Shown here piece after piece: positions 20,801 to 35,800 of a DNA stretch of 64,000 nt. Every line of letters begins with the position of its first letter. Within the stretch, counting starts at the first letter, position 1. The position numbers and the translations under genes were made by a program. The notes under the pieces are model-generated. The model was not told the origin of the DNA. It did not search any database and worked only from the letters and a program-made list of their open reading frames with translations. Source of the stretch: Tubiluchus corallicola (lineage: Eukaryota; Animalia; Priapulida); the NCBI GenBank assembly GCA_030141605.1, contig JAQGDQ010000421.1, forward strand, positions 138,693 through 202,692. Reading direction: 5' to 3'.

Positions 20801-23800
20801 ATCCAGCACAGATGGCCGAGGAATATGCCAAATTAGATATTGATTATACGCGATTTTTCAAAAACATCTACAGCTTAGCCAGATTTGAATGTTTGAAGAA
20901 TTTAGAGAAACTGCGACAACCAGTTGATAAAGACAGGTAAGCAGGGCATAGGCCACGAATTTGTCAGCTACAAAAGTTAATGCTTTTATTATTCGTAAAT
21001 TTCGGATTTTGAAGATTTCTAAACATGATTATTGATAGTAATAACAGTAATAATATTGATAATATAATACAGTGTAGTAGTAATATTGATAATAGTAACA
21101 GTAGCCACCTAAATTTGCAGATATTACTGCCAAATAGCTATGTTCATTTGCCTTCCAGCAGACAGTAATTATAAAGTGATAGCAACACCAATTCTATGTT
21201 TGTGACTGCCAGCATGTTTTTATACTGCCAGCAAGGATGGTATGCCAGTTTTTTTAACACTGCCTTATTGTTATCATTACAGATGGACAACTCGTCCAGC
21301 AATAGTGAATGCCTTTTACAATCCAAACAAGAATGACATAGGTAAGAACTGCTTTATTACTTTTATTTATTTTTTAAACTAACGTCTACATGCAATACTT
21401 ATGCCACACAAACTGGGCTATAGCGAGAAGTAAGGACAATAAATAACATTTTTGCAGTAATAGAACTTGTTAATCTGCCTTTTTAGTTCTGTAACCAAAC
21501 GTGCTTCAAAATAACTTAGTAAGATAAGCATCAGTCTTAAGTTACATCTTAGAATTTAATTTAAATAATTAAGATAAAAATTAATTATGTATTTACAAAT
21601 TTTTCCACACATACATTAATAGATTTATATTTTCATTGGTATTTGCAGTAGGACTAGACGATTGTAACTACAAACTTTGCAAAGAAATTTTGTCGAGAAA
21701 CAATTAGCTTTGAAAAATTCAAAAAGTTATCTGTTTGCTATTAAAGTAAAGCTGCAATTTGACCCTTGGTAAAAGCATACAAGACGCACGCGCCACCAGA
21801 TAATGCTGCTGAAGAAAAAGCGATCTTTAAAACTTTGTATCCTTGTTTAACAGTAGTCGACTTCAGGCAAGCAGATGTGTCTTTGTCCAGTGGTAAAGGA
21901 GGTTTGTTTTTCAAGTGCACTGCAACACATATTGTGTAATTCGTGCCGGGTTTTAAATGATCTACCACATGGTACCTTGACATGGGACTAATATCATAGC
22001 TTGCCACTATGGTATCACTGTCATCTTCTCTTTCATAAACTTTAAATCCAGTAATGTCTTCAATGATGTTGCGTTTGACATGCCAACCGATTATTATGTA
22101 TTCTTGGCTACAGTCCATTTCGTAAACAGATATTTTTCCAGGAAAATCTTTGTCCTCATGCGGCGGCCACGTCTTATCGGTGATAGGTTGCGGAGTAATG
22201 GATGGAAAGGTAATGACGCCAGATGGACGTGTATTCTCTACAGGAAGTCTTTCAGTCGTGAATACCGTGGTAGTTTCTTCTGTAGTATGATGTGGTGTGG
22301 TCCAGGTATCAATAACGGGTATTGTTTGCTTTGTGGATGGGAAGTCATTGGTTACTGTTTTAGTTGGTATAATTGTTGGAAAACTAATTCCTCCACTAGG
22401 ACGTGTGTTGGTGACTGGAGCTCTTTCAGTTGTTTGCTCAGTTGTTTGTGGAAAACTAATTCCTCCACTAGGACGTGTGTTGGTGACTGGAGCTCTTTCA
22501 GTTGTTTGTGGAAAACTGATTCCTCCACTAGGACGTGTGTTGGTGACTGGAGCTCTTTCAGTTGTTTGTTCAGTTGTTCGTGGAAAACTGATTCCTCCAC
22601 TAGGACGTGTGTTGGTGACTGGAGCTCTTTCAGTTGTTTGCTCAGTTGTTTGTGGAAAACTGATTCCTCCACTAGGACGTGTGTTGGTGACTGGTGCTCT
22701 TTCAGTTGTTTGCTCAGTTGTTTGTGGAAAACTGATTCCTCCACTAGGGCGTGTGTTGGTGACTGGAGCTCTTTCAGTTGTTTGTGGGAAACTAATTCCT
22801 CCACTAGGACGTGTGTTGGTGACTGGAGCTCTTTCAGTTGTTTGTGGAAAACTGATTCCTCCACTAGGACGTGTGTTGGTGACTGGAGCTCTTTCAGTTG
22901 TTTGTTCAGTTGTTTGTGGAAAACTGATTCCTCCACTAGGGCGTGTGTTGGTGACTGGAGCTCTTTCAGTTGTTTGTGGAAAACTGATTCCTCCACTAGG
23001 ACGTGTGTTGGTGACTGGAGCTCTTTCAGTTGTTTGTGGAAAACTGATTCCTCCACTAGGACGTGTGTTCGTGACTGGAGCTCTTTCAGTTGTTTGTGGA
23101 AAACTGATTCCTCCACTAGGACGTGTGTTGGTGACTGGAGCTCTTTCAGTTGTTTGTTCAGTTATTTGTGGAAAACTAATTCCTCCACTTGGACGTGTGT
23201 TGGTGACTGGAGCTCTTTCAGTTGTTTGTGGAAAACTGATTCCTCCACTAGGACGTGTATTTGTGACTGGAGCTCTTTCAGTTGTTTGTGGGAAACTAAT
23301 TCCTCCACTAGGACGTGTGTTGGTGACTGGAGCTCTTTCAGTTGTTTGTGGAAAACTGATTCCTCCACTAGGGCGTGTGTTGGTGACTGGAGCTCTTTCA
23401 GTTGTTTGTGGAAAACTGATTCCTCCACTTGGACGTGTGTTGGTGACTGGTGCTCTTTCAGTTGTTGGAGATAGTGTAGATTTAGTAAATAAGTTAAAAA
23501 TCTCGTAGGTCTTAATACCAATCTCTATCACCGGATTTGTTAAAGGAAGCGGGATTTCACAGTTGAAGTCTTTGGAAAAAACTTCTAGCATCTGGACTCC
23601 TGAAAATAACCGAATTATAATTTTTAATAAAACACTGAATGGAAATCAGATTGAAAAGACGTTGATAATTGTTAGCGAGGTAAATAGGTAGGTAGGTAGG
23701 TAGGTAAGTCGGTAGATAAATAGGTAGCCAGGTAAGTAGATTGGTAGATAGAATGATGGACAGGTAGTTAGGCCCTAAGTAGCTTGTTCACTCGCGATAG

Positions 23801-32800: not shown

Positions 32801-35800
32801 TTTTCAGTTTTTCCTGCCGGGATTTTGCAACCGCTTTTCTACAGCGCTTATTTCCCAAAGTGAGTATAATCCTAAACCTACTCAGTTTGGTTAACTAGCT
32901 TAAGAACAGCTTAGTTTTATAGTTTGATTCTAGAACGAATTAATCCCAGAATTTGGCTTACAGGCCAATAAATGCCTTTCATAAACCATTTTGAAGGAAG
33001 CTAATCAAGAAATGATTAAAATTAGTTGTCTATATTGAGTAAACAATTTCTGAAGGAAGATAATATTGGCATATGGCGTTTAATTTTACAAAGTACAATT
33101 ACACGTTCTTTATGCTTCAGTTATGATTGCATATATTTTAGTTTTCTTTTCTTTTTAAAGATCACTAAACTATGGTGGAATCGGAGCAGTTATTGGTCAT
33201 GAGATCACTCATGGATTCGATGACAAAGGTAATTTGTGATCTACCAATCAGACTGCTTATAGTAAGCAATATACGACAGCTATAAAGAGTACAAGTTTTA
33301 TCTAGCAGACATAAATCTCAGCTATCCCTTCTTCCCTCCTGTCCTTTCTCTCTTGCTAAATTATTTTTTCTTGCCTATCTTTCTTCAAGTTAAGAATTTA
33401 TGTTTGTTTATGTTTGTTTATGTTTGTTTCCCAATCATGCAAAATTAACTTGAGTTAAGAAAACATATTGGATAGCTTTTATCTAAGAACAAGTGGCTGT
33501 CGGGCGTAAAAGCTTAGGTATATACGTGTGCGTGTGTGTGTGCGTGCGTGCGTGTGGCAGTTCAGCAACGAGTCCAAGACATTTACCACTTACTCGCAAC
33601 CTCAGAGGTGGGGACTGCTTCACGCAACAGGATTACTTGCCAATTTCCATAACAGGGGTACGCGAGAAACCTGATTTTTGCCACAAAACGTTTTTTTAAA
33701 CGACCGGTTTGGCATTCTGAAAACCCTAACAACAGTGCCTGATTAATGTAGATGGTTGTAGCAGACCGTTCTCATTAAAAAACTGGAGAATGGTGAATGC
33801 ATGTAACTGTGAAGAACTAGTGGCTTGAATGTGAAATTGTGTTTGTACAGTAATAATTCTTTCACGTAAGTCATTTTTGACAAAATAGTATATGTTTCCT
33901 TTCAATATTTTAAATGGTGGATTGTTTTGACCTGCAGTTTAAGGTTGAGATCCGGTTTTGCTTTAAGAGACACTGGACCGGCAGAAGTATGTCAGCCATA
34001 TTCCTGCCATGTCTCTCAGTGAGGTAAAAGAAATGATGGTAGATAGTCCAGGACGGGTATCAAATCCGGTGGTCAGCCTTCCCATACACTGACCAGGCTG
34101 GACATTGTTAAACTTTTAAACGCTAAACACACACAGGAACTGCTCGGTTATTCACTTAAAGACACTCATGCAGAAGTGTTTATGATTTCACTTCAAGTAC
34201 AAAGATACTTAAATGTTCTAGAAAACCTCAATTTTACATTTTTAACATTCAGTGCTTTGCAAAGAAAAAACATATAGGTCTAGTTGCAGTGGAAATTTAT
34301 TAATAAAAGACTTGAGTTTTCTTTTTGAAAAAGTAGACAATTCGTAAGAAAGATTTGGCCTTTAGCACTTATAGGGTGTTCATAAACCTATCATGTTCAC
34401 ATGCATTCACATGGATTATTGTTAATATTATTAATTAATTATGACTGCGGTTACCAATAGTTTTTATAAACAATTGGGGTTTATTTTATCAATTATTACT
34501 CATTACTGGTAATGAGTTGGAGAAAGGAAACACTGAAAAATTGTAGTCTAGTCGAGATCCTTTCTCTTTCTCATTACCAACAATGGGTAATAATTGATAA
34601 AATGAATAGCAATGGTTCATAAAAACTCTGGCAATCACTGTCATAATTAATTAATGATATCGTTAGTTGGCAGCTAATTTGGGACAGTCTTGACCAATGA
34701 CACTATTTTTTCATGTTACTTTCTTTTATAGCATAGGCGGAATTACATATTTCCTACTTTTTAAAACGGTTTTGATGCATGCTTTTATGTGATATGGTAA
34801 CTTAAATTAAGTGCCTTTTGTACTGTCACAAATATTATCGCCCGCCATGACAATCAGTGCTGTGACGTCACGCCAGGAAGCGTCAATTAACAGTCGCAGT
34901 ACAGTAGACAGCCAGTGGCCCCAGCAAGCAGAACACTGAACACTTATTTGATGATTTCACTATTATTTCTGCAGGTAGACAATTCGATAAAGATGGCAAT
35001 TTAAAACAATGGTGGAACAATGAGACCATACAAGCTTTTAGACAGCGAACGCAGTGTATCATTGACCAGTATTCTGGATATACCCTAGAATCAGTTAATA
35101 TGAACGTGAGTGTACCTCATATTTAAAAACACAGTTTTCTAAATGATATGTATTTTCAAAGAGTTATCAGTTAACTAGTCCTTTTGACACCTATTTAAGC
35201 ATCTTCAACATTTCTTTGCCCTTTTCTTGTAATTAATGTTTTTAATTACTTTTAACAGGTAAATGGGAAAATGACGCAGGGCGAAAATATTGCGGATAAT
35301 GGAGGACTAAAGCAGTCTTTTCGGGTAAGCGACTTTGTTTATCAATTTTTTTATCTTTTAATATTAGTCCGAAGTTGCCAACCCCAATTCCCATTCAGTT
35401 TTTCGGATGTTCATACTTAAATTATAAAGATATAATTATTTCTATATAAATTATACACGTATAACCTTTATAACAATAAAGATGTATAAATAGGCCTACA
35501 TGCAACTTTACATAAGTATCTTTACGTAAAGATAACTATTCAGATATTCATGAAGAGATCTATTGCAGAGGTTTTTCGAAATCTTTGCAGAACTTTCTGT
35601 GCATGCATGTACGTGTATGTACGCATGTGTATGTTGTTTGTAGGCCTATATGTATAAAGCTGTACTACTATGTAATAGTAATATGTTGTCAATTTAGTGA
35701 AGTGGTAATCAGTTTTTTCTATAAACACAGGCTTACCAAACGTGGGTTGAAAAGAATGGCGAAGAACCATTGCTTCCAGGAATTAACCTGACCCATCATC

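What the first reader, a model, noticed from the sequence alone, without database searches (positions are those of the whole stretch)
21342..32807. A complete chaoptin-like receptor gene nested antisense inside the intron that splits neprilysin's catalytic region
Seen: neprilysin intron 14 is 11,466 bp, whereas every other coding intron is under 2.4 kb. It separates the VNAFY substrate-binding exon from the FPAGILQ/HEITH exons, and holds an intact 4-exon, 1552-codon LRR gene on the opposite strand. Known: M13 peptidases inactivate peptide signals at the cell surface, and Drosophila chaoptin is a GPI-linked LRR adhesion protein of photoreceptor microvilli. Inference: a surface peptidase and a surface LRR protein are physically interlocked. 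They could be mutually exclusive through transcriptional interference, since a host transcript aborted here would lack the zinc site, or co-regulated through shared enhancers. I do not know of this pairing having been described.
Basis: partly seen in the sequence, partly recalled or inferred. Interest (0 to 1): 0.82.

Follow-up and report, generated by a model that had tools for sequence, protein, structure and literature searches.

The report
Surface LRR gene inside neprilysin intron
An intact gene for a leucine-rich-repeat protein, predicted to sit on the cell surface, lies backwards inside the largest intron of a neprilysin peptidase gene in what is likely a priapulid worm; this nested layout is common in animals, and the two genes likely work independently.

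Summary
A 21-exon, 761-aa neprilysin has an 11,466-bp intron 14 (next largest 2,396 bp). It contains an open four-exon, 1,552-codon LRR gene on the other strand. A contig from a ~91%-identical relative splices its introns 1 and 2, and differences are mostly synonymous. The gene is not chaoptin itself. It has about 33 LRRs, a Thr/Pro tandem-repeat stalk, an FN3 domain and a conserved hydrophobic tail. It forms its own clade with a Priapulus caudatus protein and two unnamed proteins. Antisense nesting of extracellular-LRR genes in large introns is well documented (2mit/tim2, LRRTM/alpha-catenin), and this scan noted it before in other genomes. The 'loses the zinc site' argument does not discriminate, because most host introns lie upstream of catalytic residues. 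Conserved nesting, host splicing across intron 14 and co-expression could not be tested. One lead: the nested gene's only downstream AATAAA signals lie 12-30 nt from the host donor. Verdict: new member of a known kind, modest interest.

The parts
8803..21341 (+). Neprilysin (M13, Nep1/MME-like) exons 1-14: type II membrane anchor in exon 1 through the NAFY exon (exon 14, 21283-21341)
   Evidence: Open spliced frame; exon 7 matches ECE-1 (E=8.9e-07)
21342..32807 (+). Host intron 14, 11,466 bp, GT..AG, phase 1 in V566
32808..38161 (+). Neprilysin exons 15-21: FPAGILQ, HEITH, ENIAD (E658), HSPG, stop
   Evidence: Peptidase_M13 above cut-off on exons 16 and 17
25739..28240 (-). Nested gene exon 1 (834 codons): predicted signal peptide, Cys cap, about 31 LRRs; most conserved over residues 251-500
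   Evidence: model pLDDT 81
25260..25473 (-). Nested gene exon 2: last two LRRs and start of the LRR C-terminal cap
   Evidence: intron 1 spliced in an X1 contig
24587..24670 (-). Nested gene exon 3: rest of the LRR C-terminal cap
   Evidence: X1 loose end matches 24640-24669 at 29 of 30 letters
21741..23599 (-). Nested gene exon 4: stalk, FN3, hydrophobic tail, stop
   Evidence: 3' part covered by X1 contigs; intron 3 splice inferred, not seen
22306..23529 (-). Coding tandem repeat, 60-nt unit with occasional 12-nt inserts; Thr/Pro/Ser-rich mucin-like stalk (17 exact copies of a 17-residue core)
21915..22115 (-). Fibronectin type III domain (about residues 1429-1495)
   Evidence: Pfam fn3 28 bits against cut-off 25; fold matches are FN3 domains but all at E>0.001
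21771..21833 (-). Hydrophobic C-terminal segment (residues 1523-1543), likely a transmembrane helix with a 9-residue tail
   Evidence: KD 1.57 over 21 aa; nearly identical in P0243; differences from X1 here are all synonymous
21507..21740 (-). 3' UTR of the nested gene, minimum extent
   Evidence: X1 contig contiguous over 21507-21830
21353..21371 (-). Three AATAAA hexamers, candidate poly(A) signal of the nested gene, 12-30 nt from the host donor
   Evidence: use not shown
28241..32807 (-). 4,567 bp upstream of the nested ATG: acceptor-like site at 28248, presumed 5' non-coding exon(s) and promoter; no long ORF other than microsatellite frames; no Rfam match
   Evidence: promoter position inferred

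Best explanation
An intact LRR gene sits on the opposite strand inside intron 14 of an intact neprilysin gene; it is likely an ordinary nested gene, transcribed from its own promoter while the host splices around it, with no functional coupling between the two products. Shown: both reading frames, splicing of nested introns 1-2 in a relative's contig, purifying selection, and orthologs. Inferred: the product is a single-pass surface protein in which a ~33-repeat LRR solenoid is held out on an O-glycosylated stalk above an FN3 domain and a membrane helix with almost no cytoplasmic tail. It would therefore act as an adhesion or matrix-tethering molecule or co-receptor, binding through the conserved repeats at residues 251-500, not as a signalling receptor. 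Also inferred: it entered a pre-existing host intron by relocation (3 introns in 4.7 kb of coding sequence against 20 in 2.3 kb for the host), and intron 14 is large simply because it holds the gene.
For: Gene models. Splicing: X1 contig skips exactly 265 nt with CT..AC ends and continues into exon 3. Selection: 28 of 39 changed codons synonymous in exons 1-2 (the 40 differences displayed of 225) and 17 of 18 in exon 4. Orthologs: P0003 and P0004 (46% and 44%) end at the same exon-1 donor. P0243 is XP_014673439.1 of P. caudatus, 42% over the LRRs and 54% over FN3 plus tail, with an unrelated stalk repeat. The four form one clade, SH-aLRT 100. Precedent: nested genes are about 6% of fly genes; no expression correlation in 109 human and 752 fly pairs as cited there; 2mit is an LRR gene antisense in tim2 with no functional link found (PMC3786989). 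12 of 19 lost vertebrate nested structures involved LRR genes (PMC3933685). Nested genes prefer the largest host intron (bioRxiv 2023.05.02.539096). Intron 14 shows no excess of host-strand poly(A) signals.
Against: Independence of expression was not measured. Nested pairs can interact: tissue-specific co-expression and altered host isoforms in mammals (abstract), and divergence patterns attributed to interference (PMC13343718). The three minus-strand AATAAA hexamers lie within 30 nt of the host donor, while 0 of 19 other introns have one in their first 40 nt, which would put the nested transcript's end on host exon 14. The structure model did not resolve the tail as a helix (pLDDT below 50 there), so the membrane helix rests on hydropathy and conservation.
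Confidence: 0.7

Rival explanations
1. The nesting is functional through convergent transcription: polymerase on the nested gene terminates on or beyond host exon 14, so cells that express the LRR protein would suppress or mis-splice neprilysin, making the two surface proteins mutually exclusive.
For: The only minus-strand AATAAA sites between the nested stop and the host donor are at 21353-21371; none in the first 40 nt of the 19 other introns. Interference between nested genes and hosts is discussed in PMC13343718.
Against: Post hoc observation in AT-rich DNA; the same letters read as a U-rich tract on the host strand. The X1 UTR contig stops at 21507 with no poly(A) or loose end. The catalytic-split argument applies to most introns. 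No excess of plus-strand poly(A) signals.
Confidence: 0.12
2. The pair is kept together by shared or entangled enhancers in the 4.6-kb non-coding part of the intron, giving co-expression in one cell type, as proposed for tim2-2mit.
For: 4,567 bp of the intron lie upstream of the nested ATG. An intronic enhancer was proposed as the constraint for tim2-2mit (PMC3786989 abstract). Both products are predicted surface proteins.
Against: No conserved non-coding element could be tested, and no data show the nesting is conserved.
Confidence: 0.13
3. Assembly artefact: an unrelated 11-kb segment was placed between neprilysin exons 14 and 15.
For: No laid contig bridges either intron end; the interval is rich in microsatellites.
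Against: Host exons are collinear and in phase with canonical GT..AG. The nested gene sits 399 bp from exon 14 with no repeat family listed in between. The window has no N.
Confidence: 0.05

Closest known systems
Drosophila 2mit nested in timeless2 intron 11 (PMC3786989; abstract, introduction and section 9 read)
   Same: Extracellular-LRR membrane protein gene antisense in a large intron of an unrelated intron-rich host.
   Different: Different host and LRR family. 2mit has a cytosolic region with conserved motifs and its nesting is shown conserved to Apis; here the tail is about 9 residues and conservation is untested.
Vertebrate LRRTM1-3 in alpha-catenin introns (PMC3933685; abstract and first part of discussion read)
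   Same: Intron-poor LRR gene on the opposite strand of a host's large intron, presumed relocated there.
   Different: LRRTMs are short and vertebrate-specific. This gene has about 33 LRRs, a mucin-like stalk, FN3 and three coding introns.
Drosophila chaoptin (PMC2672165 passages) and the chaoptin subcluster of eLRR proteins including FN3-bearing CG40500-PD (PMC2235866 passages)
   Same: Long secretory LRR solenoid; shares the atypical C-terminal LRR block seen in database proteins labelled chaoptin or artichoke.
   Different: Chaoptin has 38 LRRs over about 90% of the chain and a GPI anchor. This protein adds a stalk, FN3 and a conserved hydrophobic segment, and forms a separate clade. The FN3-bearing arthropod 'chaoptin-like' hits lack the atypical block.
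Priapulus caudatus XP_014673439.1 'chaoptin-like, partial' (P0243)
   Same: Ortholog: collinear LRRs (42%), stalk, FN3 and tail (54%).
   Different: The model lacks the equivalent of exons 2-3 and the N-terminus, its stalk repeat is unrelated, and its genomic position relative to neprilysin is unknown to me.

Membership tests
Antisense intronic nested gene | Whole coding sequence inside one host intron, opposite strand | tested here: met
   CDS 21741-28240 (-) within 21342-32807
Antisense intronic nested gene | Nested gene is transcribed and spliced | tested here: met
   In a ~91%-identical relative (run X1, RNA by guess; one contig): intron 1 skipped, intron 2 by loose end. Intron 3 not seen.
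Antisense intronic nested gene | Host mRNA splices across the intron | tested here: inconclusive
   No X1 contig lay on exons 13-14; the join is in frame
Antisense intronic nested gene | Whole transcript, UTRs included, inside the intron | tested here: inconclusive
   5' exon unlocated; 3' UTR reaches at least 21507; candidate signals at 21353-21371
Conserved host/nested pair | Ortholog nested in the orthologous intron in other species | not testable with these tools
   No own genome held; the metagenome scan gave only a 27% hit; no genomic context for P0003, P0004 or P0243
Chaoptin (ortholog) | About 38 LRRs making up ~90% of the protein, no other domains | tested here: not met
   33 repeats by manual count, roughly 57% of 1,552 aa, plus stalk and FN3
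Chaoptin (ortholog) | GPI anchor | tested here: inconclusive
   No GPI predictor available. The hydrophobic segment is nearly invariant with P0243 and followed by a lysine and a short tail, which fits a membrane helix better (inference)
Chaoptin (ortholog) | Groups with arthropod chaoptin-like proteins in a tree | tested here: not met
   Own four-member clade (SH-aLRT 100), apart from arthropod and nematode clades and from P. caudatus P0266 (quick trees; labels automatic; D. melanogaster chaoptin itself was not confirmed among the rows)
Chaoptin (ortholog) | Photoreceptor microvillar localisation | not testable with these tools
   No expression data
Chaoptin/artichoke-like eLRR group (broad) | Long secretory LRR array ending in the atypical C-terminal LRR block and cap | tested here: met
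   In-register alignment with hits labelled chaoptin or artichoke, up to 29% identity; the block is my own criterion drawn from that alignment
M13 neprilysin family (host) | HExxH, third zinc ligand ExxxD, NAFY, type II membrane anchor | tested here: met
   HEITH 596, E658, N555, hydrophobic segment in exon 1; Peptidase_M13. Motif roles are recalled.

The most novel reading that the evidence does not exclude
A priapulid-restricted LRR-mucin-FN3 surface protein has been held in neprilysin intron 14 since before this species and Priapulus split, with its poly(A) signal against the host's 5' splice site. Its transcription would run over exon 14 and switch off the surface peptidase in the same cells: a conserved convergent-transcription switch between an adhesion protein and a peptide-degrading enzyme.
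Probability: 0.1. Interest if true: 0.6.

Novelty: new member of a known kind. Interest (0 to 1): 0.27.

Why it matters
As it stands it adds one more host to the list of genes carrying antisense-nested extracellular-LRR genes. It also defines an undescribed, apparently priapulid-restricted LRR-stalk-FN3 protein that databases label chaoptin-like. I found no paper on this pairing in the held library, but new pairings of this layout are expected. It would matter more if the nesting proved conserved and the nested transcript's end overlapped host exon 14, which would give a testable case of interference controlling a peptide-degrading enzyme.

Tried and rejected
Own genome not held. No RNA holder on record was listed. 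Host exons 13-14 had no cover in X1; a hole in one small contig set proves nothing and is not used as evidence of mutual exclusion. Host taxonomy by an exon-7 protein search found nothing among 57 candidates. The search among longer proteins gave only generic LRR hits, 21-33% identity in the 120 listed of 654. The metagenome scan gave 1 locus of 258 candidate stretches, at 27%. Accession adjacency of the P. caudatus ortholog and neprilysin could not be tested: no neprilysin accession was obtained, and paper searches gave 0 hits and 1 irrelevant listing. The ancestral position of intron 14 (same as human MME by recall) was not confirmed by a paper search. No Rfam match in 20000-34000. Long plus-strand ORFs at 21981-23505 were rejected as antisense shadows of the coding repeat. 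The fold search of the LRR model returned generic TLR/TOL-1 solenoids at 17-23% identity; there is no TIR domain, so a Toll receptor was rejected. Atlas hits for the FN3-tail part of P0243 were FN3 membrane proteins at 0.86-0.90, a lead only. No complex prediction was run, since no binding is claimed.
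Full report
Observation. Joining 21 plus-strand exons from 8803 to 38161 gives one open 761-residue frame, with GT-AG at all 20 introns. It has a hydrophobic segment in exon 1, NAFY at 555, FPAGILQ at 567, HEITH at 596 and ENIAD at 658; exons 16 and 17 pass the Peptidase_M13 cut-off. 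Intron 14 is 21342-32807, 11,466 bp; the other 19 are 153-2,396 bp, median 583. Inside it, four minus-strand exons (28240-25739, 25473-25260, 24670-24587, 23599-21741) give 1,552 codons and a stop.

The nested gene is real. No own genome was held. Two public runs were listed. In X1 (contigs, RNA by guess) one 2,802-letter contig lies on 25735-28033 and 25259-25469 at about 91% identity and skips exactly 265 letters with CT..AC ends, which is intron 1 on the minus strand. Its loose end matches exon 3 at 29 of 30 letters, so intron 2 is also removed. Intron 3 was not seen. Three further X1 contigs cover the end of exon 4 and run without a joint through the stop to 21507. Of the 40 differences displayed (of 225), 27 are at third positions and 28 of 39 changed codons are synonymous. 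Of the 40 displayed (of 49), 18 are coding and 17 of those are synonymous; the other 22 are in the UTR. This is one run of a relative, not the window's species. X2 (about 99% identical, low depth) covers patches of the intron and exon 13 but bridges neither end of intron 14.

What the protein is. It has a hydrophobic N-terminus and 33 LRRs by my manual count, with LRR_8 at E=2.8e-94. A model of exon 1 has mean pLDDT 81, and its fold matches are generic TLR/TOL-1 solenoids. Then come a cysteine cap, about 435 residues of Thr/Pro/Ser-rich sequence built largely on a 60-nt tandem unit, an FN3 domain above Pfam's cut-off (fold matches are FN3 but all at E>0.001), and a 21-residue hydrophobic segment with a 9-residue tail. 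The C-terminal model did not resolve that segment (pLDDT below 50).

Relatives. Of the best 120 of 752 hits, two unnamed proteins (P0003, P0004) are 46% and 44% identical over all of exon 1, and the other 118 are 23-30%. Both stop just after the position of the exon-1 donor, which suggests the intron is shared. A profile search of 1.84 billion representatives added one more full-length single-stretch match among the 150 listed, P0243, which is XP_014673439.1, 'chaoptin-like, partial', of Priapulus caudatus. It is 42% identical over the LRRs and 54% over FN3 plus tail, with a nearly identical hydrophobic segment and an unrelated stalk repeat. P. caudatus also has a separate all-LRR chaoptin-like protein, P0266. 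On the C-terminal LRR block the window protein aligns in register with proteins labelled chaoptin or artichoke (79 of 118 hits had a usable cap motif). It forms its own clade with P0003, P0004 and P0243: SH-aLRT 98 in an 82-row quick tree without P0243, and 100 in a 34-row quick tree from which I left out the FN3-bearing rows lacking the block and many redundant insects. Invariant residues peak at 38-58% over residues 251-500, against 8-32% elsewhere. The host animal is likely a priapulid or close relative; earlier scan notes on this genome gave that lead and the ortholog agrees.

How it most likely works. The nested gene has an acceptor-like site 7 nt before its ATG, so it likely starts at a non-coding exon and promoter within the upstream 4.6 kb. 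The host splices around it. The product is predicted to be a single-pass surface protein with almost no cytoplasmic tail, so adhesion, matrix tethering or co-receptor duty is more likely than signalling. The strong conservation of the hydrophobic segment fits a membrane helix better than a GPI signal (inference; no predictor run). Intron density (0.64 against 8.7 per kb) suggests the LRR gene moved into a pre-existing host intron. By recall, human MME has an intron at the same codon and phase; a paper search did not confirm this.

The proposed coupling. The point that an aborted host transcript lacks the zinc site is true but not special: 11,144 of 15,607 bp of the other introns also precede the HExxH exon, and later exons carry further catalytic residues (roles recalled). 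Host-strand AATAAA density in intron 14 is 0.87 per kb against 1.86 in the other introns. One result cuts the other way. The only minus-strand AATAAA sites downstream of the nested stop within the intron are three at 21353-21371, 12-30 nt from the host donor, and 0 of 19 other introns have one in their first 40 nt. If used, the nested mRNA would end on host exon 14. This is post hoc, in AT-rich DNA, and the X1 contig stops at 21507.

Comparison with what is known. PMC3786989 (abstract, introduction, section 9): nested genes are about 6% of fly genes, cited surveys found no expression correlation in 109 human and 752 fly pairs, and the LRR gene 2mit is antisense in tim2 with no functional link found. 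PMC3933685 (abstract, first part of discussion): LRRTMs nest in alpha-catenins, and 12 of 19 lost nested structures involved LRR genes. bioRxiv 2023.05.02.539096 (abstract, first third of results): nested genes prefer the largest intron, and co-expression can be tissue-specific. PMC13343718 (abstract, introduction): nesting is the commonest coding overlap, and interference is a discussed pressure. PMC2672165 and PMC2235866 (passages): chaoptin has 38 LRRs over about 90% of its length and a GPI anchor, and its subcluster includes one FN3-bearing fly protein. No supplements were read. Searches for this pairing found nothing relevant, in a library that lacks most subscription journals. The scan has noted antisense-nested LRR genes in other genomes.

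Verdict. The feature is real and was correctly seen. It is a new member of a known kind. The protein is an undescribed, apparently priapulid-restricted relative of the chaoptin group, not chaoptin. Conservation of the nesting and any regulatory coupling remain untested. Interest 0.27.

Noticed in passing
window 44079-56111 (-), sampled at 45331-45699: Intron-rich ubiquitin conjugation factor E4 (UBE4/Ufd2-like) gene converging on the neprilysin 3' end; Ufd2P_core E=5.4e-21. Not modelled.
   Followed up: partly
window 59373-62483: Tandem duplication of about 1.98 kb at 93-97% identity with CACCA-type simple repeats; could be a satellite or an assembly duplication.
   Followed up: no
window 22306-23529 (-) and P0243 residues ~835-955: The stalk repeats of the two orthologs are unrelated (20-residue unit here, 14-residue unit in P. 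caudatus) while the flanks are conserved, suggesting repeated turnover of the spacer.
   Followed up: partly
window 25765-25830 (-), residues ~805-825: A Trp-containing insertion between late LRRs is conserved in all four orthologs and absent from the other chaoptin-like proteins displayed; possible subfamily-specific loop.
   Followed up: partly
window 21353-21371: Minus-strand AATAAA cluster against the host donor; also reads as a U-rich tract on the host strand.
   Followed up: partly
window 15122-15684: Three-copy ~196-nt direct repeat inside neprilysin intron 5.
   Followed up: no
window 5853-5947, 7059-7153, 60018-60112, 62006-62100: Short dispersed repeat family, 64-82% identity to the first copy; possibly a small mobile element.
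   Followed up: no
P0243 (XP_014673439.1): The P. caudatus model lacks the equivalent of exons 2-3 (last LRRs and cap), likely an annotation or assembly gap.
   Followed up: partly
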